From an uncultured Acidobacteriota bacterium (GTDB taxonomy: Bacteria > Acidobacteriota > Vicinamibacteria > Vicinamibacterales > SCN-69-37), in assembly GCA_963752045.1 (NCBI GenBank), contig CAVVWN010000007.1:9978-73977 (forward strand): 64,000 nucleotides of DNA, read 5' to 3'. This document shows, one piece after another, positions 2,435 through 64,000 of the stretch. The notes under the pieces were generated by a model, which saw nothing but the letters and a program-made list of their open reading frames with translations, did no database searches and was not told the origin of the DNA. The stretch's first letter is position 1. Each line of letters opens with the position of its first letter. The translations under genes and the position numbers were made by a program.

Positions 2435-2435
2435 C

Positions 2436-4034: not shown

Positions 4035-4120
4035 ATCTGGGATCTGGAATCTGGGATCTGGGATCTGAGTTTCCAGATTCCAGATGCCCGTAGATCCCAG
4101 ATTCCCGATCCCAGATTCAC
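4031..4120. repeat. Hairpin built from tandem 7-mers (GGGATCT/GGAATCT on the left arm, their complement CCAGATT/CCCAGAT on the right arm); probable terminator of the upstream gene
   Basis: Read directly: GTGAATCTGGGATCTGGAATCTGGGATCTGGGATCTG ... CAGATTCCAGATGCCCGTAGATCCCAGATTCCCGATCCCAGATTCAC. The outer 14 nt pair perfectly. It overlaps the stop codon at 4032-4034 and sits 37 nt before tRNA-His. Confidence 0.7.
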
Positions 4121-4157
4121 CGATCGAGCTGTGCTAGAGTGGTGAGTCCTGCCGTGT

Positions 4158-4233
4158 GGTGAGTGTAGCTCAATGGCAGAGCACCGGACTGTGGCTCCGG
4201 TGGTTGCGGGTTCGATCCCCGTCACTCACCCCA
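4158..4233 (+). tRNA. tRNA-His (anticodon GTG) with genomically encoded G-1 and CCA end
   Basis: Folded by hand. Acceptor stem is GTGAGTG/CACTCAC, with the extra 5' G (4158) pairing with discriminator C4230. D arm is GCTC/GAGC. Anticodon stem is CCGGA/TCCGG with loop CTGTGGC, giving anticodon GTG at 4191-4193. T arm is GCGGG-TTCGATC-CCCGT. CCA lies at 4231-4233. Confidence 0.92.
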
Positions 4234-9199: not shown

Positions 9200-9264
9200 C
9201 GATCCACCACCGGAACCGCCTCAGGGCCCGGTGAGCCGGTGCCACCACGGCGCGTCTGTCAGGC

Positions 9265-10797: not shown

Positions 10798-11658
10798 CTA
10801 CCTGGCTGCCCGCTTCTTTGCCACGGCCTTCCCGGCCGCCCGCGCCGGCTTCGACGCCACCTTGGCGGCGCGCTTCTTGTTGACCGACACGCGCTCGAGG
10901 CTCTGGCGAAGCGCCTCCATGAGATTGACGACCTTCGGCGGCGCCTCTTCCGCTGTGGCCACGATCTCTTCGCCGGCCACCTTCGCGTCGATGATCCGCC
11001 GAAGCTCGTTCTGATAGTCGTCCTGGTACTGCGTCAGGTCTCCGCCGGTCTCGAAGTTGCCGATGACCTGTTTCGCCAGCTTGATCTCGTCGGGCTTGAT
11101 CTTCGCGGGCACGGTCTTCAGCTCGTCGATGGCGCTCATCGCACGTACTTCGCTCGCGTGGCGCATCGTGTACATCACCAGGCCGTTCTCGCGCGGCTGG
11201 ATGGCCACGAGGTACTCGCGGCCGTAGAGCGCCAGCTTGCCCACGGCGGCCTTGCCGGCCATGCCTTCCCGCATGACGGCGAACGCCTCGGCCGCCACCT
11301 GCCCGTCCGGCGCCAGGTAGTAGGGCCGCTCGACGTAGACCGGGTCGATCACCGCGGCATCGGCAAACTGCACGATGTTGATGACACGCGTCGATTCGGG
11401 CTTCACCTTCGCGAGGTCGTCCTCGTCGATGACGACGTACTTGCCCTTCTCGACCTCGTAGCCTTTCACCAGGTCGGTGTTGGGCACCTCGGTCTCGCAG
11501 GTCGGACACCATCGCTTCTGCTGAATGCGGGTCCGGCACTCGCGGTGCAGCTGGTTGAAGCTCACCGTCGCCTTCGCGTCCGTGGCTGGGAAGACTCGGA
11601 CGGGAATGTTGACGAGACTGATCTTGAGATAGCCCTTCCAGGTCGGTCGAGCGGCCAT
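10798..11658 (-). CDS. ku: Ku protein (non-homologous end joining)
   Basis: Start MAARPTWKGYLKISLVNIPVRVFPAT (ATG at 11658-11656), then KGYEVEKGKYVVIDEDDL, YYLAPD, and a basic Lys/Ala-rich C-terminal tail. The 45 extra N-terminal codons in the ORF track fall in the repeat array. Confidence 0.9.
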   Translation of the reverse strand: MAARPTWKGYLKISLVNIPVRVFPATDAKATVSFNQLHRECRTRIQQKRWCPTCETEVPNTDLVKGYEVEKGKYVVIDEDDLAKVKPESTRVINIVQFADAAVIDPVYVERPYYLAPDGQVAAEAFAVMREGMAGKAAVGKLALYGREYLVAIQPRENGLVMYTMRHASEVRAMSAIDELKTVPAKIKPDEIKLAKQVIGNFETGGDLTQYQDDYQNELRRIIDAKVAGEEIVATAEEAPPKVVNLMEALRQSLERVSVNKKRAAKVASKPARAAGKAVAKKRAAR

Positions 11659-11749: not shown

Positions 11750-11791
11750 GGTACGACGGGTACGACAGGGTACGACGGGTACGACAGGTAC
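11750..11791. repeat. Tandem array of GTACGAC-core 9/10-mers (GGTACGACG/GGTACGACAG x4)
   Basis: Read directly: GGTACGACGGGTACGACAGGGTACGACGGGTACGACAGGTAC. It is the inverted partner of the array at 11958-12020. Confidence 0.8.
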
Positions 11792-11957: not shown

Positions 11958-12020
11958 GGGTACCTGTCGTACCTGTCGTACCCTGTCGTACCTGTCGTAC
12001 CCGTCGTACCCGTCGTACCT
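11958..12020. repeat. Tandem array of GTCGTAC-core 9/10-mers (x6-7), reverse complement of the array at 11750-11791
   Basis: Read directly: GGTACCTGTCGTACCTGTCGTACCCTGTCGTACCTGTCGTACCCGTCGTACCCGTCGTACC. It ends 15 nt before the ligD ATG. Confidence 0.8.
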
Positions 12021-12023
12021 GAT

Positions 12024-12034: not shown

Positions 12035-14161
12035 ATGCCCCGTTGGCGCGACGACCCGGCGAAGGTGAGGCCCATGCTGGCATCGCTCGACGACCCGCCG
12101 GTCGTCAAGCGCGGGCTCGTCTACGAACCGAAGTACGACGGCGTGCGGGCGCTTGCGGACCTCCGCCCGCCCGAGAAGCGGGGACAGCCGCCGCACGTGG
12201 CCCTCTACTCGCGTAACGGCCACGACAAGCGGCGCCAGTTCCCGGCTATTGCCGAGGCGCTCGGCACGCTCGTCACGAAGATCGGACGGCCGATCCTCGC
12301 CGATGCGGAGATCGTGGCCGTCGACCCAAAAGGCCGGCCGCTCGGCTTCGGCAAGCTCCAGGGTCGCATTCATCTCACCGCCGAAACCGACATCGCGCGC
12401 GCCGAACGCGACCAGCCGGCGGCCATCGTGATCTTCGACCTGCTGCGCGACGGCGACGAAGACCTGCGCGCCCTGCCACTCGCGGCGCGCCGCCTCCATT
12501 TGCAGAAAGTCGTCAAGCCGAAGGGCGCCCTGGCCCGGTTGATCCGGCTCAGCGAAGTCGAGGCCGACGACGGCCGGCCGATGCTCCGGCGGGCGGAGAA
12601 GGAAGGCTGGGAAGGCCTCATCGTCAAGGACGGCCACAGCGTGTACCAGAGCGGACGCCGCACGCCGGCCTGGCGCAAGCTCAAGCTCACCGGCCAGCAG
12701 GAGCTCGTCGTCGTCGGCTGGACCAATCCCCAGGGCAGCCGGCATCACTTCGGCGCCCTGCTCGTCGCCGTTCACGAAGACGGCGCGCTGCGGTACGCGG
12801 GCAGCGTCGGCACCGGTTTCGACGAGCGCGAGCTGGAACGGGTGGCGAAGCTGCTCGCGAAGCGCGCGCGCACGTCGTCGCCGCTCGCCGACACGCCCAG
12901 GTCGCTCTCGGCCGCGCACTGGGTGGAGCCGTCGCTTGTGGCTGAAGTGCGATTCACCGAGTGGACGAGCGACGGCATGCTGCGTCACCCGGTGTACCTG
13001 GGTCTGCGCGACGACAAGCCCGCGGGGAAGGTCGTGAGGGAGCGGCGAAGGTCCGAAGGTCCGAAGGTCCGGAGGTCCGAAGGTCCGAAGGTCCGGAGGT
13101 CCGAAGGTCCGAAGGTCCGGAGGTCCGGCGGTCCGAAGGTTCGGGGTCCGGGCGGCCGAGAGTCCGGTCACGGGACAGTCACCGGTGACGCCGGTGTCGT
13201 CGAGCAGTTGCTGGCGCTCGAGGACGCGCGCAAGGACGGCGACGTCCTGCTGCCGAATGGCGACCGCCTTCGCGTGACGAATCTCGGCAAGGTGTTCTGG
13301 CCGGCGCTCGGCATCACGAAGGGCGAGCTGCTCCGCTACTACGCGGAGGTGGCGCCGCTCGTCCTGCCGGCCGTCGACGACCGGCCGCTCGTGATGAAGC
13401 GCTTTCCGAACGGCGTGGACAAGAAGGCCTTCTACCAGCAGCGGCATCCAGATCCCGTCCCGGCCGGCGTGAGACGCGAGCGGCTCGCCGAAGACGTCGA
13501 CCCCATCGACGAGGCCGAGGGCGGACGCGAGCGGCTGATTGGCGGCTCGCTCACGACCCTGCTCTACATGACGCAGCTGGCCGCCATCTCGCAGGATCCG
13601 TGGTTCTCCAGGGTGTCCGATCCGCTGGCGCAGGACTACACGGCCATCGATCTCGACCCGGGCGACGGCACCACGTTCGCCCACGTGCTCGACGTCGCGC
13701 GATGGGTGAAAGACGAACTGGACCGGTTCGGCATCCCTGGCGTGCCCAAGACGTCCGGGTCGCGGGGCCTGCACATCTACATTCCGCTTCCGCCGGGCAC
13801 CGGCTACGATGTCGGCCAGTTGCTCGCCCAGATTGTCGCCACGATCGTGTCGAGCGCGCATCCGAAGGTGGCGACGATCGAGCGCATGGTGCGGCGCCGG
13901 CCGAAGGGCACGGTGTATGTGGACTATCTGCAGAACATCCTCGGCAAGACACTCGCCACCGCCTATTCGGCCAGGGCCAGCGACTATGCCGGCGTGTCGA
14001 CGCCACTCACGTGGGACGAAGTGGCCGATGGCATCGACCCGCGGGACTTCACGATACGGTCGGCGCCGCAGCGGTTCCGCGAGGTGGGCGACCTGTGGGC
14101 GCCCCTGCGCTCGGGCGCGCCCGTGAACCTCTCGCGCGTGCTGCGCACGCATCTCCGATGA
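12035..14161 (+). CDS. ligD: ATP-dependent DNA ligase LigD, ligase domain + polymerase/primase domain (no phosphoesterase domain)
   Basis: 708 aa. The N-terminal ligase domain carries the adenylation motif EPKYDGVRA and WEGLIVKD, RTPAWRKLK. The C-terminal LigD polymerase domain carries VTNLGKVFWPALGITKGELLRYYAEVAPLVLPAVDDRPLVMKRFPNGV and SGSRGLHIYIPL. A repeat-encoded linker lies between them. Confidence 0.9.
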   Translation: MPRWRDDPAKVRPMLASLDDPPVVKRGLVYEPKYDGVRALADLRPPEKRGQPPHVALYSRNGHDKRRQFPAIAEALGTLVTKIGRPILADAEIVAVDPKGRPLGFGKLQGRIHLTAETDIARAERDQPAAIVIFDLLRDGDEDLRALPLAARRLHLQKVVKPKGALARLIRLSEVEADDGRPMLRRAEKEGWEGLIVKDGHSVYQSGRRTPAWRKLKLTGQQELVVVGWTNPQGSRHHFGALLVAVHEDGALRYAGSVGTGFDERELERVAKLLAKRARTSSPLADTPRSLSAAHWVEPSLVAEVRFTEWTSDGMLRHPVYLGLRDDKPAGKVVRERRRSEGPKVRRSEGPKVRRSEGPKVRRSGGPKVRGPGGRESGHGTVTGDAGVVEQLLALEDARKDGDVLLPNGDRLRVTNLGKVFWPALGITKGELLRYYAEVAPLVLPAVDDRPLVMKRFPNGVDKKAFYQQRHPDPVPAGVRRERLAEDVDPIDEAEGGRERLIGGSLTTLLYMTQLAAISQDPWFSRVSDPLAQDYTAIDLDPGDGTTFAHVLDVARWVKDELDRFGIPGVPKTSGSRGLHIYIPLPPGTGYDVGQLLAQIVATIVSSAHPKVATIERMVRRRPKGTVYVDYLQNILGKTLATAYSARASDYAGVSTPLTWDEVADGIDPRDFTIRSAPQRFREVGDLWAPLRSGAPVNLSRVLRTHLR
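13047..13150 (+). repeat. In-frame tandem repeat (8-mer GGTCCGAA/GGTCCGGA; 24-nt supra-unit x3 plus degenerate copies) inside the ligD linker
   Basis: GAAGGTCCGAAGGTCCGAAGGTCCGGAGGTCCGAAGGTCCGAAGGTCCGGAGG... encodes (RRSEGPKV)x3-RRSGGPKVRGPGG. It is followed by the 12-nt perfect palindrome GTCACCGGTGAC. Confidence 0.85.
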
Positions 14162-48640: not shown

Positions 48641-48682
48641 GATCCCCAGATTCCCAGATTCCCAGATGCTCTGAGATTCCAG
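48641..48682. repeat. CCCAGAT/TCCCAGA 7-mer array (same family as the 4031-4120 hairpin)
   Basis: Read directly: GATCCCCAGATTCCCAGATTCCCAGATGCTCTGAGATTCCAG. Confidence 0.7.
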
Positions 48683-49033
48683 TTGTTCACGTCGCGTGCC
48701 GCGACGCCCGCACCCGACGAACAGGCCTGTGGCGGTACCGGACGCCAGGGCCGGGGGACCGTGGAGACGTGGAGCCCGTGGAGGTGCGCCTCCACCCCGT
48801 GTCGTCAACCGGTCGCCGTGGCCCCGTCGGGGCCGACCGGGCGCCGACGAGCCGCCCCGTCCTGCGCCGGTCCCCCGACTCGGCGGCTCATCGGCGCCCG
48901 GTCGGACCCGACGCCGGCGGCCGGAGGCCGCGCGAGCGCGGCTCGCGGCCACGGCGACAAAGCGCTGCCGCGGCTTGTGGTCGCCAGAGGCCCTCCATGC
49001 ACTCCACGTTCTCAACGGTGGCATTTTCGTAGC

Positions 49034-49055
49034 AGATCCCAGGTTCCAGATTCCC
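49034..49055. repeat. Short copy of the CCAGATTCC 7-mer motif, in direct orientation relative to 48641-48682
   Basis: Read directly: AGATCCCAGGTTCCAGATTCCC, 15 nt downstream of the ggt stop (ggt is on the minus strand). Confidence 0.6.
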
Positions 49056-55378: not shown

Positions 55379-57684
55379 CCCGGCGCATCGAGAGCACGGT
55401 CGGCTCGCCCGGACACGCCCGCCACTCCGCAGCCGCAGATTGCCGGCATCGAGATCACGGGGAACCCCGGCTTCAGCGAAGCGGAACTGTCGAGCGCCCT
55501 TCGCCTCAAGCCGGGACAGCGCTTCGACATCCGGCGGTGGATCGACGACCGGGTCCGGCTCGAGCGGTTCTACCGGGACCGCGACTACCATCGCGTCCGC
55601 ATCGTGCCGACCCGCATCGAGGGAGATTCGGTCGGCAGCCCGCGCCGTTTGTCGCTCAGATACGACATCGATCGCGGACCGCGCACCGTTATCGAGGTCG
55701 CGGGCGACGACCTGCCCGCCGACGCGGTGAAAGAGATGCAAGAGGAATGGGGCGGCGTGCCGATCGCCGACATCCTCCGCGATGAATTCGAGCGCATCGC
55801 CCGCCTCGCGTTGGCCCGCCGCGGCTACTTTCGGGCCACCGTCGGCGCCGAGTTCACCACGTTGACCGACGAGCTCGAGCAGGCGGTGCTCACGGTCGAC
55901 CGCGGAGCGCGCACGCGGCACCAGCTGATCGCCTGGAGCGGCAACCGGGCGGTGACGGCCGCGGACCTCGACGCGATCGCCGCGGAACTGCCGGCCGAAC
56001 TGAGTCCGTTCGTCGACCCCCCGGCGCTCGTCAGGGACATCACGGCGCGGTACGCCGAAGCGGGCTTCTTCGATACCGAGGTCGTCGTGGGCGCGACCGC
56101 GTTCGATGGCGACACGGCCACACTGCCCATCGCGATTGTCGAAGGCCCGGTCTCGCGTGTGACGTCACTCGCACTCGAAGGCGTCGCCCCCGATCGACTC
56201 GATGGCGCACGGGCGGCGGTCGACCTGCCCGACGGTTCGACGTTCGGCTCGAGAACCGCCATCGAGGCACACCGGCGCCTCGAAGGTTTCTACGCCGACC
56301 TCGGCTATCGCGATGCCGCGGTCACCTACAGCGTCGACCGCTCGCCCGAGGGTTCGGTCGCCCTGGCGATGACGGTCGACGAAGGGTTGCCGCATGTCGT
56401 GAGCGACGTGCAGGTGTCGGGCGTCGAAAGCACGAGCCGCACGCTGGTCGATCGCGCCGTGACGCTCGCCCCGGGCCAGGAGGCTGGCCGGCAGCGCGCC
56501 CTCGACACACGCCGGAACCTGTACGACATCGGCACGTTCCGCCAGGTGGACGTCACGTTCGAGCCATCGGCGCTGGCCGCCGAACCGGGCGCGACGATTC
56601 CCGTCTGGGCCTCGGTGTCGGTCGAGGAACCGAGAAAGTACCAGCTCCGCTACGGCGTGCAGATATCGAGCAACTACACGGTGGCGACCGGCTTCGGCAA
56701 AACAGCGTTCGGCGCGACCGCCGAACTGCGCGACCGCAACTTCCTGGGACGGGGCATGCAGGCCAGCGTGGGCGCCCGCTACGACACCGACATCCAGGCG
56801 TTCAGCGTGCTGCTCTCGATGCCTCGGACCTTCGGGCGCGAGATTCGCACGAACATCTTCGCGCGCGAGCGCCGCGAGATTACCGACGCCGATGTATTGA
56901 CCTTCGAGGACCGCCGGCGGGACTTCACGTTCGAACAGCGCTGGCGGCCGCGGCAGACGTTCGAGATGGCCTGGAGCTACGCCTTCGGGTACCGGGCCTT
57001 CCGCCTGTCGGCGCCGGGCGATCTGGAAGACGAATCGGGCGGCTTCCTGGCCGGCCCGACCGCTCTCGGTCGTCCTCGACCATCGCGACGATCCGTTCGA
57101 CGCCACGAGCGGCTGGTTTCACTCGTCGAGCATCCAGGGCGGCCTCGAGTGGCTCGGCTCGGACCTCGACTACAGCCGGTACCTCGGACGGCAAACGCAC
57201 TACGTCTCGTTCGGACCGTTGACGTTTGCCGGTGGCGGCAGGTGGGGCACGCTCGACGCCTATCGAGGCGCGCCGCCTCTCTCGGTGCTCGACCTGTTCT
57301 TCACTGCCGGTGGCACGAACACCATCCGTGGCTATCCCGAAGGCTCGCTGTCGGCGGCCACGATCGAAGTCGTCAGGTTCGGCGACCTGCTGCTCATCCT
57401 TCCCGAGCCCCTGAAGGTGGGCGGCCCGGAGCTGCTCGTGCTCAACGGCGAGGTCCGCTATCCGGTTTTCCGACTGGATCCGGGGCGTGATCTTCGTGGA
57501 TGCCGGCAACACGTTCCTCAGCTGGAACGACATCTCGGCATCGAAGATGGCGGTTGGCGGCGGGCTGGGCATCCGCATCCGAACGCCGCTCGCGCCGCTC
57601 CGCTTCGATTTCGCGTATCCGCTCACGACGGGCTTCGGCTACCGCGGGCTGCGTATTCACTTTTCGATCGGGCAGATGTTCTAG
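55379..57684 (+). CDS. Omp85/BamA-like outer-membrane protein portion (20-aa linker, about 5 POTRA repeats, beta-barrel), read in frame from the TamB-like part; two further frame breaks as given (about 57055 and about 57470)
   Basis: Linker PGASRARSARPDTPATPQPQ, then POTRA-like units starting IAGIEITGNPGFSEAEL, EVAGDDLPADAV, LIAWSGNRAVTAADL, LALEGVAPDRLDGAR, VQVSGVESTSRTLVDR. Barrel: LRYGVQISSNY...RDRNFLGRGM...; own translation VVLDHRDDPFDATSGWFHSSSIQGGLEWLGSDLDYSRY; FFTAGGTNTIRGYPEGSL; C-terminus WIRGVIFVDAGNTF...GGGLGIRIRTPLAPLRFDFAYPL...RIHFSIGQMF (terminal Phe). Confidence 0.75.
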
Positions 57685-57715
57685 GCGCTGGGGTAAGATC
57701 CTCGGCGCGCCGCTC

Positions 57716-58438: not shown

Positions 58439-59206
58439 ATGCCGAACGCACCAGACCTACTCGTCACCCTCGCGCTCAGCCTGGCGATCCAGGCCGTGTT
58501 CTTCGTCTTTGCCGCGTCGTTCAAGACGGACAAGGTGACCGATCTTTCCTACGGCCTGACGTTCATCCTCCTGGCGGTGTTCCTGCTGTTCAGGCACCCG
58601 CCGATGACCGGACCGTCGCTTGCGGTGACCGCGATGGTCGTCCTGTGGGGCGTGCGGCTCGCCGGGTATCTCCTCGTTCGCATCGTGCGCATGAAGCGCG
58701 ACAAGCGGTTCGACGGCATCCGCGAGCACTTCTGGAAGTTCTTTCAGTTCTGGTTCTTCCAGGGTGTCGTCGTGTGGATCATCATGGTGCCGGTCATCTT
58801 CTGGTTCGGCGCGCCTGGCCGGTGGAACCTGTGGATGACGATCGGCGTTCTGGTCTGGGCGACTGGCCTCGTCATCGAAACCGTCGCCGACGCGCAGAAG
58901 TTCCGATTCAAGTCGCAGCCGGGCGGTGGCGGGCGCTGGATCGACGCGGGCCTCTGGCGCCTCAGCCGCCACCCGAACTACTTCGGCGAGATCCTCTGCT
59001 GGTGGGGCGTGTTCCTGTTCACCTCACGGGACCTCGGCGCGTGGATCTGGGCCGGCGCCATCGGACCGGTGACGTTGACCCTGATCCTCCTCTTCTTCAC
59101 CGGCATCCCGACGCTCGAGAAGAGCGCGCGCGAGAAGTGGGGCGACGACCCCGAGTACCGGGCTTACCGCGAGCGGACGCGCCTGCTCGTGCCGTGGCCC
59201 AAGTGA
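58439..59206 (+). CDS. DUF1295 / steroid 5-alpha-reductase-like membrane protein
   Basis: 255 aa: KTDKVTDLSYGLTFILLA, VVLWGVRLAGYLLVRIVRMKRDKRFDGIRE, and GLWRLSRHPNYFGEILCWWGVF (the hallmark block). Confidence 0.8.
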   Translation: MPNAPDLLVTLALSLAIQAVFFVFAASFKTDKVTDLSYGLTFILLAVFLLFRHPPMTGPSLAVTAMVVLWGVRLAGYLLVRIVRMKRDKRFDGIREHFWKFFQFWFFQGVVVWIIMVPVIFWFGAPGRWNLWMTIGVLVWATGLVIETVADAQKFRFKSQPGGGGRWIDAGLWRLSRHPNYFGEILCWWGVFLFTSRDLGAWIWAGAIGPVTLTLILLFFTGIPTLEKSAREKWGDDPEYRAYRERTRLLVPWPK

Positions 59207-59207
59207 T

Positions 59208-59275
59208 GAAGGTCCGAGGGTCCGAGGGTCCGAGGGTCCGAGGGTCCGAGGGTCCGAGGGTCCGAGGGTCCCCGG
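59208..59275. repeat. Tandem 8-mer array (GGTCCGAG x8) starting 2 nt after the DUF1295 stop
   Basis: Read directly: GAAGGTCCGAGGGTCCGAGGGTCCGAGGGTCCGAGGGTCCGAGGGTCCGAGGGTCCGAGGGTCCCCGG. A short inverted copy, CCTCGGACCTTCGGCC, lies at 59340-59355. Confidence 0.85.
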
Positions 59276-59456
59276 AGTTCGCGGATAGGGTACGCTCGCC
59301 AGCCTCGTTTGGAGGAGAGTCGGCGACCGCCAGCTCGTTCCTCGGACCTTCGGCCCCCTTGATCCCTGACACGGCGCAGATTAGCTACTTGGGTCGCCCG
59401 CTCGTCCCTCCGGCCGACGGCCGACCCCAAGGTCTGCAGGTCCCCAGGCCCGAGCT

Positions 59457-60212
59457 CTAGGGCCGGGTGACGTGAATTCTGAACCGCGCGTAGAACGTCC
59501 CGATGTGCGTTCTCGGCCCTTTTCTGTTTTCGCGCATCACGCGCGTGATCGCGGGGTCCTGGCCGATTGGCTCGATGGACCAGTCGTTGCACCCGCCGGC
59601 GTCGGCGGCATTGCAGACCACCAGGGCGTCCGTCGTCTCCAGAAAGCCGTTGGACGAGCGCGCCGCCCCCTTGTGGTACGTAATTCCGCTGAAGACGAAG
59701 TTGGTGCCGAGCGGACATTCAAGAGAACTGCTCGCCGTCATCGTCTTCATGCTGCGGTTGACCTTCGTGCACATGGTGTGGATGTTGCCCGGTACGAGCT
59801 GCGTTCCCCAGTAGGGCGGCGTAGCAGGCACGAGGTAGGCCGGCTCGCCCAGTTGCACGGCGTCGTCCAAATCCAACGCGATGCCGAATCTTCTTCCCGC
59901 TGTCCCCGGCGAAAACTGCCAGTCGCCATGCGTGAGTCCGTTGTACACGTTGGCCGTGAGGATTGATTTCACTCCGCCGACGTTGTGGACATACGCGCCA
60001 AGACCATCGCCGAGTATGTCTGCGGGCAATCCATTTTCGTCAAGGTGCTCGATGTAGGTCGTGACCGAAAGGTCGCCCGACGGCTTCGCGGCCATTGCGT
60101 CTGGGCTTTGTGATGTGGGCGCCACCGGACTCGTCCCCTCAGGTCCGAATTCGGAACACGCCGTGTTGAAAACAAATAGAAGACCGAACGGTGCCAGTGC
60201 TTTCAGTTTCAT
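59457..60212 (-). CDS. Lipoprotein of unknown function (lower-GC gene; distant paralog of 36393..37142)
   Basis: 251 aa. Lipobox-type signal MKLKALAPFGLLFVFNTAC. No known domain. The local GC content is visibly lower than in the flanks. Confidence 0.6.
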   Translation of the reverse strand: MKLKALAPFGLLFVFNTACSEFGPEGTSPVAPTSQSPDAMAAKPSGDLSVTTYIEHLDENGLPADILGDGLGAYVHNVGGVKSILTANVYNGLTHGDWQFSPGTAGRRFGIALDLDDAVQLGEPAYLVPATPPYWGTQLVPGNIHTMCTKVNRSMKTMTASSSLECPLGTNFVFSGITYHKGAARSSNGFLETTDALVVCNAADAGGCNDWSIEPIGQDPAITRVMRENRKGPRTHIGTFYARFRIHVTRP

Positions 60213-60276
60213 GAAATGTCCTCACAAGTAATCAAGTAATAACGACGGCCAGCAGTAAACCGGAAAACTGCTCCAG

Positions 60277-60335
60277 ACTCGGACCGTCGGACCCTAGGAC
60301 CTTCGGACCTTCGGACCTTCGGACCCTCGGACCTC
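60277..60335. repeat. Tandem 8-mer array (CTCGGACC/CTTCGGAC x7), inverted relative to 59208-59275
   Basis: Read directly: ACTCGGACCGTCGGACCCTAGGACCTTCGGACCTTCGGACCTTCGGACCCTCGGACCTCC. Confidence 0.85.
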
Positions 60336-60539
60336 CTGGCCATCGGCGTAGGGATTGCCGTCGGAGCAGATGTCACAGCTTTGGTTGGCTGAGTCCGTAT
60401 CTTCAATCGTCACTGACAGGGCGACCGGTGTCTGACCGCCCCCACCTGCTCCAGGCTTCTTCTTGCCTTGCCTGGCCATCGGCTGAGTGGCCAGCAGGGA
60501 CACGGCGAGGACAGATACGAGCAGGGCGACTCGATTCAT
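60294..60539 (-). CDS. Small secreted protein; the C-terminus and stop codon lie inside the 8-mer array (possible truncated paralog of the downstream lipoprotein)
   Basis: 81 aa from the ATG at 60539: MNRVALLVSVLAVSLLATQPMA (signal) ...VALSVTIEDTDSANQSCDICSDGNPYADGQEVRGSEGPKVRRS-stop. The block ALSVTIEDTDSANQ..DICSDG resembles DLSVTTYIEHLDENGLPADILGDG of the 59457..60212 protein. Confidence 0.4.
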   Translation of the reverse strand: MNRVALLVSVLAVSLLATQPMARQGKKKPGAGGGGQTPVALSVTIEDTDSANQSCDICSDGNPYADGQEVRGSEGPKVRRS

Positions 60540-60687
60540 GGGAAGACTCCCACCCGCGTTTCTACGCAAATGGCCGTCCGGAGTCCTTATGGAAACCTGA
60601 TCTTGGGGTGATCACGCGAGAAACCCGGCCTTCCTGGCCCTGATCCCGAGGCTTCTCCGGGGCGACGTCCGAATCGGCCGCCGCGGC

Positions 60688-61521
60688 CTACGGGCGCCAG
60701 CCGAGCTCCCGCCGGCTGAAATCGAACTGCAGGAAGGAAGAGCCCAGGACGGTTGGCGCAAGGAGGCCCTTCACGGGGCGGGTCGCGACCGGAGCCTCGG
60801 CGACCACTGCCTGCAGGTTGTTCACGCGCCAGGCGCCGACCCTGAGCTCCGGCAGAAGCAGCCCCTGAATCGCCACCGTGCCCCCGAGAATGGACGCGGC
60901 AATCGCCCCCGCCTGTTCGAACGTGCGGTCGCCGGTCGGCAGGAACAGCACGACGTGGCTCGCCCCCGTGTCGACGATGAGCTCGGCGGGAACGCCGCCG
61001 ATGTCGACGCTGACCACGGGGAACACGGGGTCCGGTCCCAGCGGGATGAGGTGACGGGTTCGGGTCCCCACCCCGAACGACAGGCGCCGGCGCGCGTAGT
61101 CGATTGCGAAGCTCGCGCGACCGAGCACGTCCATGCCGATGATCCCGTCGAGCCGGTCGAGTCCAAGCGATTCAGTCGTGGCGGACAAGTCGGTCGAGAC
61201 GACTCTAAGGTCGTCCGCGCGTACGTCACCAATGCGCAGATCGGGAAGCACGACCTCCGCGCCCGCCATCGTCCTCCCGAACGTCAAGACCGACGTGGCC
61301 CGGCCCGTGAGTCCGAGTGAGGCAGCCACCGGTGTGTCGACGACCGTCCGGCTCGTGCCGGTGTCGACCAGCAGCCGAAGCTCGTCGCGGGCTCCGGCGC
61401 TGGCAGAGATGACAATCAGATGGCCCCGGTGGAGCTCAAAGGCCACATCGACGGGTGCGTTCGAGGTCAAGCCGCAGCAGAGAGCTGCGGCCATGACGAG
61501 CATGGCAACTCGGCCTGGCAT
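60688..61521 (-). CDS. Secreted tandem retropepsin-like aspartic protease (two DTG domains in one chain)
   Basis: 277 aa with a signal peptide, then LLVDTGTSRTVVD (domain 1) and LIVDTGASHVVLF (domain 2), each followed by IIGMDVLG/ILGG-type flap/dimer blocks. Confidence 0.75.
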   Translation of the reverse strand: MPGRVAMLVMAAALCCGLTSNAPVDVAFELHRGHLIVISASAGARDELRLLVDTGTSRTVVDTPVAASLGLTGRATSVLTFGRTMAGAEVVLPDLRIGDVRADDLRVVSTDLSATTESLGLDRLDGIIGMDVLGRASFAIDYARRRLSFGVGTRTRHLIPLGPDPVFPVVSVDIGGVPAELIVDTGASHVVLFLPTGDRTFEQAGAIAASILGGTVAIQGLLLPELRVGAWRVNNLQAVVAEAPVATRPVKGLLAPTVLGSSFLQFDFSRRELGWRP

Positions 61522-61647
61522 GGCAATGTCCCCCGCCTACGGTGTATGCGGGGGACCCCAGCCGAGTCCTTATGGCTATGCGAGGTTCTACCGATGAACC
61601 GCCGATGTTCTGGTGATTCTCGGTTCCTCCGTCGTCCGGAGTTTGCG

Positions 61648-64000
61648 TTAGCGAGTCGCCCTTGAGGCGGTGCCGGAAGGCTGTATTCCAGAATCGGCAA
61701 CGAGTTGCGCCGAGGCCTCGAGCTCGCGGAAGAACGGGTGATCGGGATCGGCCACGGACATGAGCTGCCTGACCTGCGCTTCGAGCGCGTCGGCATCATC
61801 GGCCCTGCCGGCCCGACGGTAGGCACCGACCAGCTTCACCTGCGCCTTGATCCACCAGGCGCCAGTCAGCCCAGGAACGTTGTAGACGGGCTGAGTCACG
61901 ACGGCCTCTTCGAGCACGCGAATAGCCTGTGAAGCGCTGCCTGAGCGCTCCCACATGTCGGCCAGCGTGACCGATGTGTCGTAAAAGCCGGATGTCGGGT
62001 TCTCGCGGCGGATGTCCACGACCTGCTGGAGCGCTGTCGCCGCCTCACGGAAACTGCCGCTCGCCGCAGTCTCGAGCGCCCGTACATGAAGGCGGGCGGT
62101 CTCGCTGGCATACCCTCCGGCAATGATCTCATGAGCCCGATCGAACAGGCCAACGTGGGTGTATGGCACCGGATTGTGAGCCCAATCCACTTCCGAGAGC
62201 AGGTCTCGCATACTCGCCAGGTCGTCGAAGAGGTCTGCGATACGGAACAGATTCGTCGCGCGCTGACCGGGGTGGGCGCCACGTTCGAACACCGCGCGCG
62301 CCCGCTCGATCCGCCCAAACGCAAGCCAGAACAAGCCATTCGCCGTGACGAGCGAGTCCCGCATGAACTCTGTCTGTCCGGCTATCGTGTTCTCGATGCC
62401 CTGCACCGATTCAAGGGCAGCCTGGTAATCGCCACCGGCCCACTGCTGGTACGCGTCGAAGTGAAGGACCCAGGCCGCGCGCCAACATGAATTCTCGCGC
62501 TGTCCGGCCTCCGGCGTGAGTAGCGCGCCTGCCCGGTCGGCGTACGAACGAGCCTCTGGGTGGCCCAGCAGGACGAGATCCTGCGCTGCGTCCGCCATCG
62601 CGTCGAAGTCACCGGGCAGCATCCGGGCAATCGCGATGCTCTGGCGGGCCATCGCCTGCCATTGCCCTTTCGCGGAGTACAACGTACGCAGGAGCGTCCT
62701 GGTTCGCAGCTCGAAGACACTCGGCCTCGCCATCTCCAGCGCTTCCAGCGCCGCCAGTGCCTCACTGCTGCGGTCGAGAACGCTGAGTGCCGCCCCGCGG
62801 ATAAAGAGCTGCTCCTCACGCGAAACGCCTTCGGCCAATACGAGGCTCTCCTGTGCCACCTGCCGGTAGGCGTCCGGATTCGGAGTGCCACCCATGTACG
62901 CCAGCCCGCTCTGTTCCGCCGTGCGCAGGACCATCGCCAGCCAGACCTTCGCCATCGCGAACTCGGGATCGAACCGGAGCGCCTCACGGAACTTCTCGAA
63001 GACCGCCTCCCACGGTCCGTCGATGCTCGCCCAATTGGCATCGGCCACCTCGACTGCCTGCGCAAACAACTGGAGGGCCTGGAGCGACGATGTCGTGACC
63101 GAAGGCAGCGGGCTTGCAGGCGGCCGCGAAGCCGTGACGGACGCGAATCTGGCCATCCTGCGCAGGTCCTGTCTCAATTCCGCCTCATTGGCTCCGTGGA
63201 AGGCGAAACTCGCGAGCGCGTCGCCACTCGAGTCGGTCAACTGAACCGACACCATCACGTCGTCGCCGACTTCAAGCGCGCGGCCTGTGACAAGGGCGGC
63301 GATGTCTGTGTCGCGGGCCATCACTTGCCGGGCCGTCTCGGGGTCGAGAATCGCATTTGGGCGGCGCATGCGGGCGAGCACGGCCGACAGCCGCCCGGCC
63401 GGCACGAGCGCAAGGTTGCCGTGACGCCCGACCTCCTGCTCGAGCAGGCCCGTGATCGTGTCGGCCAAATCGCTCCGACTCGTCCGGTTCTCGAACGGCG
63501 CGAGGAGCACGAGCGCGGGCCCGGTGGCTGAGACGGTCTCCGCCCAGGGACGCGACCACAGCAGGAGACTCGCGAACATCGCGACAAGCGAGGCCACGAT
63601 CGCGACACCCCTCTGGGAGGCCCCCGGCGACGTTGCGGATGGCACCGCGTTCGGCCCCTGCGCCGGGATCATCTCGGGTCGCAACGACTCGACGCCAGGA
63701 GGGGCGCCGATGACGGCGATATCGATAGCCGAGACTTCCAGCTGCCCTACTACGGCGGGCATCAACCGGTACCCCCGCTTCGGAATCGTCTCGATGATGC
63801 GCGGCCGGCGTGCATCGTCTCCAAGCGCGCGACGCAGCTCCGACATCGCGCGCGTGAGGGAATCTTCGCCCACGATCACGCCCGGCCACACCGAGTCCAG
63901 CAGCGCCGCTTTGCTCACGACGGCGCCGGACGACTCGGCGAGCCGCACGAAGAGCTCCATCACCTTCGGCTCGACACGGACGACTTCGTCACCGCGGCTG
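61648..64000 (-). CDS. Winged-helix (OmpR/CadC-type trans_reg_C) transcriptional regulator with TM segment and large TPR-like domain; the N-terminus lies beyond the right edge
   Basis: Own translation across the edge: ...SRGDEVVRVEPKVMELFVRLAESSGAVVSKAALLDSVWPGVIVGEDSLTRAMSELRRALGDDARRPRIIETIPKRGYRL. Then a TM segment (VAIVASLVAMFASLLLW) and about 550 aa of helical-repeat sequence. Confidence 0.75.
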   Translation of the reverse strand, partial: SRGDEVVRVEPKVMELFVRLAESSGAVVSKAALLDSVWPGVIVGEDSLTRAMSELRRALGDDARRPRIIETIPKRGYRLMPAVVGQLEVSAIDIAVIGAPPGVESLRPEMIPAQGPNAVPSATSPGASQRGVAIVASLVAMFASLLLWSRPWAETVSATGPALVLLAPFENRTSRSDLADTITGLLEQEVGRHGNLALVPAGRLSAVLARMRRPNAILDPETARQVMARDTDIAALVTGRALEVGDDVMVSVQLTDSSGDALASFAFHGANEAELRQDLRRMARFASVTASRPPASPLPSVTTSSLQALQLFAQAVEVADANWASIDGPWEAVFEKFREALRFDPEFAMAKVWLAMVLRTAEQSGLAYMGGTPNPDAYRQVAQESLVLAEGVSREEQLFIRGAALSVLDRSSEALAALEALEMARPSVFELRTRTLLRTLYSAKGQWQAMARQSIAIARMLPGDFDAMADAAQDLVLLGHPEARSYADRAGALLTPEAGQRENSCWRAAWVLHFDAYQQWAGGDYQAALESVQGIENTIAGQTEFMRDSLVTANGLFWLAFGRIERARAVFERGAHPGQRATNLFRIADLFDDLASMRDLLSEVDWAHNPVPYTHVGLFDRAHEIIAGGYASETARLHVRALETAASGSFREAATALQQVVDIRRENPTSGFYDTSVTLADMWERSGSASQAIRVLEEAVVTQPVYNVPGLTGAWWIKAQVKLVGAYRRAGRADDADALEAQVRQLMSVADPDHPFFRELEASAQLVADSGIQPSGTASRATR

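What the first reader, a model, noticed from the sequence alone, without database searches (positions are those of the whole stretch)
59208..60335. Lower-GC lipoprotein gene bracketed by inverted GGTCCGAG arrays: cassette-like structure
- An 8-copy GGTCCGAG array (59208-59275) and an inverted 7-copy array (60277-60335) flank about 1 kb.
- The only gene in that 1 kb (59457..60212, lipoprotein of unknown function) is visibly less GC-rich than its surroundings. Its flanks include AT-rich stretches such as CAAGTAATCAAGTAATAACGAC.
- The right-hand array also supplies the last 11 codons and the stop of the upstream small ORF. This ORF looks like an N-terminal fragment of a paralog of the same lipoprotein.
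- The pattern suggests insertion or recombination mediated by the repeat arrays, with one family member replaced or truncated by another.
Basis: partly seen in the sequence, partly recalled or inferred. Interest (0 to 1): 0.55.

Follow-up and report, generated by a model that had tools for sequence, protein, structure and literature searches.

The report
Gene trapped between inverted octamer-repeat arms
In a soil Vicinamibacterales (Acidobacteriota) genome, a compositionally foreign lipoprotein gene with its own promoter sits between the two arms of a lineage-specific inverted GGTCCGAG repeat and has replaced about 1.3 kb that relatives still carry, which links these little-studied repeats to genome rearrangement.

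Summary
(GGTCCGAG)x8 lies at 59211-59274 and an inverted (GGTCCGAR)x7 at 60278-60333, 1,003 bp apart.

- **Composition.** The enclosed lipoprotein gene is the lowest-GC kilobase of the window. Its codon usage is an outlier (z = -3.5) and resembles homologues from lower-GC relatives.
- **Synteny.** Three relatives have DUF1295 > DUF2911 > a 226-aa secreted-protein gene at this site. In the window, homology stops at the DUF1295 stop codon and resumes at 60332, inside the 226-aa gene. So 59207-60333 replaced about 1.3 kb and left an 81-codon stump that ends inside the right array.
- **Origin of the gene.** Its closest homologues sit next to an ECF sigma factor, and it kept that conserved upstream block.
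- **The arrays are not special to this site.** They belong to a dispersed Vicinamibacterales family of palindromic 7-10-nt repeat arrays. These usually form tight hairpins that start 0-30 nt after stop codons, and they turn over between relatives. They resemble the GGGNATC repeats of Xanthomonas and Nostoc. A second pair of arms, in other genomes, encloses a 23S-IVS-protein gene and also marks a synteny break.
- **Limit.** None of 84 other loci carrying this lipoprotein family is bracketed by arrays.

Replacement and truncation are shown. Mediation by the arrays is only inferred. I favour breakage and illegitimate joining at a fragile palindromic array.

The parts
58439..59206 (+). DUF1295 gene. 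This is the left syntenic flank; homology to relatives ends at its stop codon (59204-59206).
   Evidence: Pfam PF06966, E = 3e-65. BLASTN synteny with L003-L009 runs up to 59199. Alignment A1.
59211..59274 (+). Left arm: (GGTCCGAG) x8, with 7 perfect units. The G-rich form is on the sense strand of DUF1295 and starts 4 nt after its stop. It fits a G3N5 G-quadruplex motif.
59275..59456 (.). Spacer of 182 bp downstream of the lipoprotein gene. It has no homologue in any fetched locus apart from array-like matches.
   Evidence: Alignment A4. BLASTN with word size 9.
59341..59356 (-). Inner 2-unit inverted copy (GGGCCGAAGGTCCGAG on the minus strand). It can pair with the left arm across a 66-nt loop, and it lies between the convergent DUF1295 and lipoprotein genes.
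   Evidence: The folds are not better than shuffles.
59457..60212 (-). Cargo: a 251-aa predicted lipoprotein of a conserved all-beta family with no Pfam match. GC 0.606, GC3 0.754, atypical codon usage.
   Evidence: 74 homologues. No Pfam hit. AlphaFold2 pLDDT 87.5, no PDB match at E <= 0.001. Composition.
60213..60276 (-). Upstream block carried along with the gene. It is homologous to the ECF-sigma/lipoprotein intergenic region of L010, L011 and L002 (TTTTCCGGTTT...CCGTCGTTATTAC). It contains an 8-bp tandem duplication, CAAGTAAT x2, at 60225-60240.
   Evidence: Alignment A3. BLASTN E = 5e-7 to L011. TRF.
60278..60333 (-). Right arm: (GGTCCGAR) x7 on the minus strand. It abuts the truncation point of the 226-aa gene homologue and supplies that gene's last 12 codons and its stop.
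   Evidence: Alignment A2 shows homology to L003 resuming at CCTCCTGGCCATCG, about 60332.
60294..60539 (-). An 81-codon stump of a secreted protein whose orthologues are 225-229 aa in all 7 homologues found.
60688..61521 (-). Retropepsin-like (Asp_protease_2) gene. This is the right syntenic flank.
   Evidence: Pfam hit. Orthologue in L003 at 8420-9253.

Best explanation
The two arrays are the two arms of one copy of a lineage-wide family of palindromic short-tandem-repeat elements. The unit is GGTCCGAR (GGGTCCGA in another register), and the G-rich arm always comes first.

In Vicinamibacterales these elements normally form tight hairpins with a 0-50 bp loop. They usually start within about 30 nt of a stop codon (in several cases within 0-4 nt), with the G-rich form on the sense strand. 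In this window the arms are 1,003 bp apart because a fragment of about 1 kb lies between them. The fragment holds a lipoprotein gene whose closest homologues lie beside an ECF sigma factor. It also carries the 64-bp upstream block conserved in that context and 182 bp of unrelated 3' sequence.

The whole 1.13-kb unit (59207-60333) occupies the place of about 1.3 kb that all sampled relatives retain. The lost DNA is the DUF2911 gene and the 3' two-thirds of a 226-aa secreted-protein gene.

- **Shown:** the replacement, the exact breakpoints, the truncation, the foreign-looking composition of the cargo, the origin of its promoter block, and the family behaviour of the arrays.
- **Inferred mechanism:** the palindromic, G-rich array is a fragile and recombinogenic site (hairpin, cruciform or G4). 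A break at or beside it was repaired by illegitimate, end-joining-type ligation. That repair captured the gene fragment, probably from a lower-GC relative, and deleted the adjacent DNA. Ku and LigD are encoded in the same window, and the right junction has at most 2-4 nt of microhomology.
- **Afterwards:** each arm sits, as elsewhere in the lineage, at the 3' end of the gene that faces it (DUF1295 on the left, the stump on the right).
For: **Replacement**
- Gene order DUF1295 > DUF2911 > 226-aa gene is found in L003, L004/L008 and L167.
- The homology limits are 59199 and 60332 (alignments).
- All 7 homologues of the 226-aa protein are full length.

**Cargo origin**
- Four homologues of 68-79% identity lie divergently next to an ECF sigma factor, three of them with a Ser/Thr kinase as well.
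- The upstream block is conserved right up to the array.
- GC3 and codon usage match those homologues rather than the window.

**Array family**
- (GGTCCGAR)>=3 occurs in 75 stretches among 185,579 species genomes. These are concentrated in Vicinamibacterales/Acidobacteriota MAGs, with about 10 loci each in two of them.
- All close inverted pairs of this unit put the GGTCCGAR form first. Among 22 tight pairs of any unit family, I counted 17 G-first, 3 C-first and 2 with equal G and C by eye from the table.
- A gene stop lies within 30 nt in the expected orientation in 16 cases, against 1 in the opposite orientation.
- Presence/absence at one site: directly after the TamB/Omp85 stop there is no array in the window, a GGTCCGAR hairpin in L006, and (GGGGTGCGYC)x5 in L167.

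**Second independent case**
- L073 and L077 carry a 23S_rRNA_IVP gene between arms about 505 bp apart.
- Their 90%-identical collinearity ends at the outer edge of the C-arm.

**Repair capacity**
- Ku and LigD are confirmed by Pfam.

**Junction sequences**
-.
Against: - No intermediate state was found. No relative has an empty GGTCCGAR hairpin at this site, and relatives carry GGGTGCG-type arrays there instead.
- The closest relatives are only 78-83% identical in DNA. Several events could therefore have occurred in sequence.
- The left junction coincides with where arrays sit in any case, so only one junction is informative.
- The two arms differ in unit variants: all GAG on the left, mostly GAA on the right. 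This does not look like a freshly split hairpin.
- Breakage, end-joining and the donor are not observed directly.
- RNA folds of the left arm region are no better than shuffles, z = -0.8 and -1.3. No U-tract terminator was detected at either array; the only terminator-like hit in the region (60262-60246, minus strand) lies in the lipoprotein upstream block and is no more than shuffles give. A 3'-end role for the arms is therefore unproven.
Confidence: 0.5

Rival explanations
1. The unit is an array-bounded composite mobile element, similar to a foldback or composite transposon. Any two inverted arms plus what lies between them would be mobilised as a unit by an unidentified enzyme. The short hairpins would be its empty, MITE-like form.
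For: - Hairpins behave as discrete insertions. In L006 about 112 bp sit cleanly between a stop codon and otherwise conserved sequence that is contiguous in the window.
- The same unit families (GGTCCGAR, GGTACGACR) occur at non-orthologous sites in different genomes.
- Two independent loaded pairs exist, with different cargo.
- Both edges of the non-syntenic DNA are array edges.
Against: - There is no target-site duplication, and 1.3 kb is deleted rather than simply interrupted.
- There is no transposase or recombinase inside either loaded unit. One cargo is a lipoprotein and the other a 127-aa four-helix-bundle protein.
- 0 of 84 loci with lipoprotein-family genes are array-bounded.
- Many different unit sequences share one architecture, which is hard to reconcile with a sequence-specific enzyme.
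Confidence: 0.15
2. The arrays are unrelated to the rearrangement. An ordinary illegitimate recombination or horizontal insertion placed the lipoprotein fragment here. 3'-end arrays then colonised or expanded at the new gene ends, as they do throughout the lineage.
For: - Arrays turn over quickly at fixed post-stop positions, with different unit families at the same site in relatives.
- Both arms have the orientation expected for 3' caps of the genes that face them.
- The arms differ in unit variants.
Against: - The right arm begins exactly where homology to the 226-aa gene ends, and it supplies the stop codon. A later insertion would have to hit the breakpoint to the base.
- The same unit family is found on both sides, 1 kb apart, although only three GGTCCGAR arrays of 7 or more units, at two places, occur in 64 kb.
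- A second synteny break at an arm edge is seen in L073/L077.
Confidence: 0.2
3. The structure is an assembly chimera. The MAG contig was joined wrongly through dispersed 60-bp arrays, so the lipoprotein gene does not really lie between DUF1295 and the stump.
For: - The window comes from a metagenome-assembled contig of 319,682 bp.
- The arrays are dispersed repeats.
- The only independent contig with the identical protein is 1,026 bp and does not reach the outer junctions.
Against: - Two chimeric joins would be needed.
- By my arithmetic from the gene position in that 1,026-bp contig, it should extend about 114 bp upstream of the gene, which would reach about 50 bp into the right array. No DNA was returned for it, so this was not checked.
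- The stump is truncated exactly at the array. An artefact would not explain the loss of its 3' part unless that part lies elsewhere in the genome.
Confidence: 0.05
4. The unit is an invertible (phase-variable) segment. The 56-64-bp inverted arms would allow the 1-kb segment to flip.
For: The geometry, inverted repeats flanking a gene plus its promoter, permits homologous inversion.
Against: - Promoter and gene lie together inside the segment, so inversion would not switch expression.
- No recombinase gene is adjacent.
- No alternative orientation was seen in any data.
Confidence: 0.03

Closest known systems
G-rich heptamer SSR arrays (GGGNATC) of Xanthomonas and Nostoc (Rehm et al. 2015, PMC4692102), related to the cyanobacterial STRR repeats
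   Same: - Tandem arrays of 6-9-nt G-rich units, spread over the genome and over-represented in non-coding DNA.
[quoted passage not shown]
- Frequent convergent inverted pairs (70-75 cases per Xanthomonas genome).
- Copy number varies between relatives.
- G3-tract periodicity compatible with G4 formation.

Paper. Here. The window also carries GGGATCT/GGGAATCT arrays close to the Xanthomonas unit.
   Different: - The phylum is different (Acidobacteriota).
- The unit is an octamer, GGTCCGAR, and the GAA variant lacks G3 tracts.
- Many unit families coexist in one genome.
- In the passages I read, that paper does not describe genes enclosed between the arms, arm edges at synteny breakpoints, or in-frame use in a protein. 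It reports increased stability near the repeats.
REP/BIME and REPIN-RAYT systems of Proteobacteria
   Same: Short extragenic palindromic repeats at gene ends, dispersed in hundreds of copies, often as inverted doublets. Proposed roles are mRNA 3'-end stabilisation and termination. A gene (RAYT) can sit between inverted repeats. This rests on established knowledge and on the abstracts of PMC3733652 and PMC3116915 listed.
   Different: REPs are single imperfect palindromes of 20-40 bp with a conserved GTAG or CGTC head, not tandem arrays of variable unit sequence. No Y1-transposase (RAYT) gene was found between the arms here, where the cargo is a lipoprotein or an IVS protein. The rest of the genome could not be searched.
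Foldback elements and composite transposons
   Same: Terminal inverted repeats built from short tandem repeats (the foldback elements of Drosophila; from my own knowledge) that can enclose unrelated DNA.
   Different: Those are eukaryotic, move by a transposase and leave target-site duplications. Here there is no duplication, no transposase, and a concomitant 1.3-kb deletion.
Integron gene cassettes
   Same: A single gene bounded by structured repeats, at a site where relatives carry a different gene.
   Different: Integron cassettes are usually promoterless. They carry one attC site at the 3' end and need an IntI integrase and an attI site. Here the gene has its own promoter block, there are two tandem-repeat arms, and neither immediate neighbour (DUF1295, retropepsin-like) is an integrase; the rest of the window was not scanned for one.
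23S rRNA intervening sequences carrying PF05635 genes
   Same: A small four-helix-bundle gene (23S_rRNA_IVP) enclosed by inverted repeats that can form a long stem. The L073/L077 cargo belongs to this Pfam family, E = 3e-18.
   Different: The element is not inside an rRNA gene. The arms are tandem octamers, and the link to the window's lipoprotein unit is architecture only.

Membership tests
G-rich 6-9-nt SSR arrays (Xanthomonas/Nostoc type, Rehm et al. 2015) | Head-to-tail arrays of a 6-9-nt G-rich unit, far above chance | tested here: met
   Period 8, 7-8 copies. 25 pattern matches against 0.52 expected.
G-rich 6-9-nt SSR arrays (Xanthomonas/Nostoc type, Rehm et al. 2015) | Unit sequence GGGNATC | tested here: not met
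   The unit here is GGTCCGAR. Other arrays in the window (GGGATCT, GGGAATCT) are close to GGGNATC.
G-rich 6-9-nt SSR arrays (Xanthomonas/Nostoc type, Rehm et al. 2015) | Located within about 50 bp of the stop codon, G-rich form on the sense strand | tested here: met
   16 arrays in the expected orientation against 1 in the opposite, using crude ORF calls. The left arm starts 4 nt after the DUF1295 stop.
G-rich 6-9-nt SSR arrays (Xanthomonas/Nostoc type, Rehm et al. 2015) | Frequent convergent inverted pairs | tested here: met
   All close GGTCCGAR pairs are G-first. About 20 tight pairs of other unit families are listed.
G-rich 6-9-nt SSR arrays (Xanthomonas/Nostoc type, Rehm et al. 2015) | Folds into a G-quadruplex | not testable with these tools
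   The left arm matches (G3N5)x7. The right arm and the LigD array do not match the motif. CD spectroscopy would be needed.
REP/REPIN-RAYT | Single 20-40-bp imperfect palindrome with a conserved GTAG or CGTC head | tested here: not met
   The arms are tandem octamers without such a head.
REP/REPIN-RAYT | Cognate RAYT (Y1 transposase) gene in the genome, flanked by the repeats | not tested
   Only 64 kb of the genome was available. The genes between the arms are not transposases.
Transposon (composite, foldback or MITE-like) | Target-site duplication flanking the terminal inverted repeats | tested here: not met
   The flanks are ...AAGTGATGAA | array and array | TCCTGGCC..., with no direct repeat. 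About 1.3 kb of ancestral DNA is missing.
Transposon (composite, foldback or MITE-like) | Several copies of the same element at different sites | tested here: inconclusive
   Empty hairpins are multi-copy. The loaded lipoprotein unit was seen only here, 0 of 84 family loci. The rest of the genome is unavailable.
Integron gene cassette | Promoterless ORF with a single 3' attC site, plus IntI and attI nearby | tested here: not met
   The gene carries a conserved upstream block and is flanked by two tandem-repeat arms. Its neighbours are DUF1295 and a retropepsin-like gene.
Site-specific invertible switch | Inverted repeats plus an adjacent recombinase, with the promoter and its target separated by the inversion | tested here: not met
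   No recombinase gene is adjacent. Promoter block and gene are both inside the segment.
Lipoprotein family of the cargo (unnamed, no Pfam entry) | Full-length match to the family profile, including invariant residues such as GDWQF, GCNDW and RFRIHVTRP | tested here: met
   335 bits over profile positions 14-242. 74 homologues. Alignment A5.
Lipoprotein family of the cargo (unnamed, no Pfam entry) | The small ORF / 226-aa protein is a member | tested here: inconclusive
   Only the N-terminal 60-85 residues match: 19.5 and 31 bits. BLASTP is negative. This indicates a shared module rather than full membership.

The most novel reading that the evidence does not exclude
The arrays may not be passive slippage products. 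They could be the ends, or the products, of an unrecognised DNA-end-processing or mobilisation system in Vicinamibacterales. Such a system would cap gene 3' ends and break junctions with repeat arrays whose G-rich strand runs 5'>3' towards the junction, which is the geometry of two healed ends joined head to head. It could also trap or carry whole genes between the two arms.

This reading would account for several observations at once:
- the near-exclusive G-first polarity across many unit families;
- the rapid replacement of one unit family by another at the same post-stop site;
- arm edges that coincide with synteny breaks in two independent genome pairs;
- the two gene-bearing pairs.
Probability: 0.12. 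Interest if true: 0.8.

Novelty: new variant of a known kind. Interest (0 to 1): 0.45.

Why it matters
Arrays of 6-9-nt repeats at bacterial gene ends have been described in only a few lineages, and no function or origin is established for them. This locus gives a dated, base-resolved example in which the two arms bound a gene replacement. The comparison set shows the same arrays at a second synteny break, around a second gene, and in frame inside LigD.

If arrays are generally enriched at rearrangement junctions, they would be a lineage-specific driver of gene gain and loss in Vicinamibacterales, an abundant and poorly cultured group of soil bacteria. They would also be a practical marker for recent insertions and for assembly-fragile sites in MAGs.

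If they are not enriched, this locus is simply an ordinary horizontal insertion next to common repeats.

Tried and rejected
- **BLASTP of the small ORF against the lipoprotein.** No similarity. The relation appeared only with a family profile.
- **The search for related loci with the single protein in metagenomes.** Nothing found. The alignment-based repeat gave 80 loci, none with flanking arrays.
- **ECF-sigma adjacency across the family.** It holds only for the closer subfamily. Of 55 loci with at least 700 bp of upstream sequence, 8 had the sigma factor by tblastn with one sigma query. It is therefore not a rule for the whole family.
- **RNA folding of the left arm with its inner partner.** No better than shuffles on either strand. 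The consensus scan found no sigma-70 promoter, and no U-tract terminator at the arrays.
- **Rfam on the whole window.** Only one tRNA.
- **Fold search of a confident AlphaFold2 model of the lipoprotein.** No PDB match at E <= 0.001. The best hit was a weak YceI-like match with TM about 0.26-0.36, so I make no functional call.
- **A possible conserved loop motif, GGTCCGAGGAACGAGCTG.** It is shared between this unit and a GGTACGACR element in L060. It occurs only twice in about 1 Mb, roughly what I estimate chance would give. Rejected as evidence.
- **The four-helix-bundle gene as a general partner of the arrays.** Found at one orthologous locus only.
- **L017, a candidate gene-sized inverted pair with an 1,824-bp spacer.** It turned out to be parts of separate elements.
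- **Reading L003's DUF2911 as 'bracketed by inverted 9-mers'.** Better described as a post-stop G-form array plus a separate hairpin.
- **Literature.** No paper links Vicinamibacter with tandem repeats. A text search for GGTCCGAG returns only stem-loop RT-PCR primers.
- **Source contig.** It could not be retrieved.
Full report
**1. Observation**

The region was read directly.
- TRF reports (GGTCCGAG) x7.6 at 59211-59271 with 100% identity. It reports the reverse-complement array at 60279-60334 with 7.0 copies and 87% matches.
- In register the arrays are 59211-59274 (8 units) and 60278-60333 (7 units), 1,003 bp apart.
- A two-unit pattern with up to 2 mismatches occurs 25 times in the window, against 0.52 expected from shuffles.
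One is a 2-unit inverted copy at 59341-59356, 66 nt inside the left array. The other is a third array of 12 units at 13050-13145.
- The only credible gene between the arrays is 59457-60212 on the minus strand, 251 aa.
- The stretch between the arrays is the lowest-GC kilobase of the window: 0.609 against a mean of 0.686 and SD of 0.025.
- The gene's GC3 is 0.754, against about 0.82-0.92 for most credible window genes.
- In a synonymous-codon likelihood test the gene is lower than all 28 window genes (z = -3.5). It groups with its homologues from lower-GC relatives.

**2. Organism and gene**

- The DUF1295 neighbour belongs to a 90%-identity cluster that one source names Vicinamibacterales bacterium. 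The window derives from a MAG contig of 319,682 bp.
- The enclosed protein has a lipobox-like N-terminus and no Pfam match.
- It has 74 homologues in soil metagenomes and Acidobacteriota MAGs.
- An AlphaFold2 model built on 41 sequences is confident (pLDDT 87.5) and all-beta. It has no PDB match at E <= 0.001. The biochemical function stays unknown.
- Four homologues of 68-79% identity (L001, L002, L010, L011) lie divergently next to an ECF sigma factor gene. Three of them (L001, L002, L011) also have a Ser/Thr kinase gene alongside.
- The 64 bp upstream of the window's gene (60213-60276) aligns with the sigma/lipoprotein intergenic block of L010, L011 and L002 (TTTTCCGGTTT...CCGTCGTTATTAC). 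The alignment runs right up to the array.
- The gene therefore sits here without its usual neighbours but with its own upstream block. That this block is the ECF-dependent promoter is an inference.
It contains an 8-bp tandem duplication that the homologues lack.

**3. Synteny**

Relatives at 78-83% DNA identity were recovered through the DUF1295 cluster and through the 226-aa protein.
- L003, L004/L008 and L167 all have DUF1295 > DUF2911 (plus strand) > a 225-229-aa secreted-protein gene (minus strand). In L003 this is followed by the same retropepsin-like gene as in the window.
- Homology between the window and the relatives ends at the DUF1295 stop codon. It resumes at about 60332 (CCTCCTGGCCATCG), inside the 226-aa gene.
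- The window's small ORF (60294-60539, 81 codons) is the N-terminal roughly 70 residues of that gene. It then runs into the right array, which supplies 12 codons and a TAG from a variant unit.
- All 7 homologues of the 226-aa protein are full length, so the window's state is the derived one.
- The 226-aa protein shares only an N-terminal module of about 80 residues with the lipoprotein family (31 bits).

The net result is that 59207-60333 (1,127 bp) replaced about 1.3 kb.

**4. What the arrays are**

- An exact scan of one genome per species found (GGTCCGAR)>=3 in 75 stretches. They are concentrated in Vicinamibacterales/Acidobacteriota MAGs, with about 10 loci each in LejiaF_68_38 and MFD00962.bin.2.118. 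One Rhodothermales MAG also has several. Occurrences elsewhere are scattered singles.
- In the Acidobacteriota loci the usual form is a tight palindrome of G-form array, 0-50 bp, then C-form array. All close pairs of this unit put GGTCCGAR first.
- The same architecture recurs with many other 7-9-nt units. Among 22 tight pairs of any unit family, my count by eye from the table is 17 G-first, 3 C-first and 2 with equal G and C.
- Using crude ORF calls, 16 arrays lie within 30 nt of a stop codon with the G-form on that gene's sense strand. Only 1 lies the other way.
- The arrays turn over. Directly after the TamB/Omp85 stop, the window has no array, L006 has a degenerate GGTCCGAR hairpin of about 112 bp inserted cleanly, and L167 has (GGGGTGCGYC)x5.
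- After the DUF1295 stop, relatives carry GGGTGCG-type arrays of varying copy number where the window has GGTCCGAG.
- This matches the class described for GGGNATC heptamers in Xanthomonas and Nostoc. Those are non-coding, very close to stop codons, often form convergent inverted pairs, and are variable in copy number and G4-prone (PMC4692102).
- The left arm fits a (G3N5)x7 motif, but the right arm does not.
- I found no paper on such repeats in Vicinamibacterales.

**5. Do arrays go with rearrangement?**

- **This locus.** The left junction is uninformative, because an array is expected after a stop codon. The right junction is informative, because the arm edge coincides with the truncation point.
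- **Second case.** L073 and L077 come from two Acidobacteriota MAGs. They are collinear at 90% identity up to the outer edge of a C-arm and unrelated beyond it. L077 continues with tRNA-Gly and another array.
- **Second cargo.** Between the arms of that element, about 505 bp apart and starting 1-2 nt after a stop codon, lies a PF05635 (23S rRNA IVS protein) gene, E = 3e-18. It is frameshifted in L077.
- So gene-bearing inverted pairs of this unit occur at least twice independently, and arm edges coincide with synteny breaks at least twice.
- Against a dedicated cassette, none of 84 further loci (327 kb) carrying lipoprotein-family genes has flanking arrays.

**6. Mechanism**

The following are shown:
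- the replacement and the breakpoints;
- the stump;
- the origin of the cargo's upstream block;
- the atypical composition;
- the family behaviour of the arrays.

Inferred, with a confidence of about 0.5, is that the palindromic G-rich array is a fragile site. A break there would have been repaired by illegitimate end-joining that captured the fragment and deleted neighbouring DNA.
- In favour: no target-site duplication, at most 2-4 nt of microhomology at the right junction, and Ku and LigD encoded in the window.
- Rivals: a composite array-bounded mobile unit (0.15), arrays that arrived afterwards at the new gene ends (0.20), an assembly chimera (0.05) and an invertible segment (0.03).
- The chimera is made less likely by an independent 1,026-bp contig that encodes the identical protein. 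By my arithmetic from the gene position in it, it should reach about 50 bp into the right array. No DNA was returned for it, and it does not reach the outer junctions.
- A 3'-end RNA role for the arms is plausible from their position but unsupported. The folds are not better than shuffles, and no U-tract terminator was found at either array.

**7. Verdict**

Replacement and truncation hold, but mediation by the arrays and a true 'cassette' are unproven.
- The arrays are a new member of a known class of gene-end SSRs. The gene-bearing, breakpoint-marking configuration is a new variant of that class.
- Interest is moderate. Its value lies in pointing to a testable, lineage-wide association between these repeats and genome rearrangement.

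Noticed in passing
window 13050-13145: A 12-unit GGTCCGAR array, with a period-24 superstructure, lies in frame inside the LigD gene (12035-14161). It encodes (RRSEGPKV)n in the linker between the ligase C-terminal domain (ends at residue 328) and the Prim-Pol domain (starts at residue 428). These arrays have no stop codon in any of the six frames.
   Followed up: partly
window 11750-11791 and 11960-12021: An inverted pair of (GGTACGACR)n nonamer arrays, 168 bp apart, occupies the divergent region between ku (10798-11655, minus strand) and ligD (starts at 12035, plus strand). The same unit family forms a pair with a 101-bp spacer at a non-orthologous site in L060 (1183-1354).
   Followed up: partly
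window 4035-4125: A tight G-first palindrome of (GGGATCT)n heptamers starts 1 nt after the stop of the gene at 2370-4034 and lies just upstream of a tRNA gene (4159-4230). The unit is close to the Xanthomonas GGGAATC repeat.
   Followed up: partly
window 48641-48667 and 49033-49054: Two short CCCAGATT-type arrays in direct orientation flank about 370 bp of very GC-rich sequence. I did not check this stretch for ORFs. Rfam finds nothing there at gathering threshold.
   Followed up: no
L073 4627-5276 and L077 6076-6707: A PF05635 (23S rRNA intervening-sequence protein, four-helix-bundle) gene is enclosed by inverted GGTCCGAR/GTTCGAGG arms directly after a 451/455-aa gene (not checked against Pfam; phosphomannomutase-like by eye). 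The gene is intact in L073 and frameshifted in L077. Synteny between the two genomes ends at the outer edge of the C-arm.
   Followed up: yes
L006 1109-1220, window 57684-57707, L167 4725-4790: The same intergenic site, directly after the TamB/Omp85-like stop codon, takes three forms. It holds a GGTCCGAR hairpin in one relative, a (GGGGTGCGYC)x5 array in another, and no array in the window.
   Followed up: yes
L042 7700-8000: A long nested palindrome. (ACGGAG-type) tandem arrays form the base, and a unique, near-perfect inverted repeat of about 190 bp forms the top.
   Followed up: no
window 59328-59349 (minus strand) and L060 1213-1234: A 22-nt match (GGTCCGAGGAACGAGCTG...) lies at the inner border of a G-arm in two elements that have different array units. 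The 11-nt core GGAA[CG]GAGCTG occurs only twice in about 1 Mb, which is roughly what I estimate chance would give.
   Followed up: yes
window 59457-60212 and alignment A5: The lipoprotein family (74 homologues, invariant GDWQF / GCNDW / RFRIHVTRP motifs) gives a confident all-beta AlphaFold2 model. It has no Pfam family and no PDB structural match at E <= 0.001. It is an uncharacterised family whose closer members are paired with an ECF sigma factor.
   Followed up: partly
window 60294-64000: The genes to the right of the unit also have somewhat atypical codon usage for this window: the stump (-0.115), the retropepsin-like gene (0.002) and the 771-aa Trans_reg_C regulator (-0.033), against a window mean of 0.043. 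The whole right-hand neighbourhood may be a variable region. The relatives L167 and L168 also differ there.
   Followed up: no
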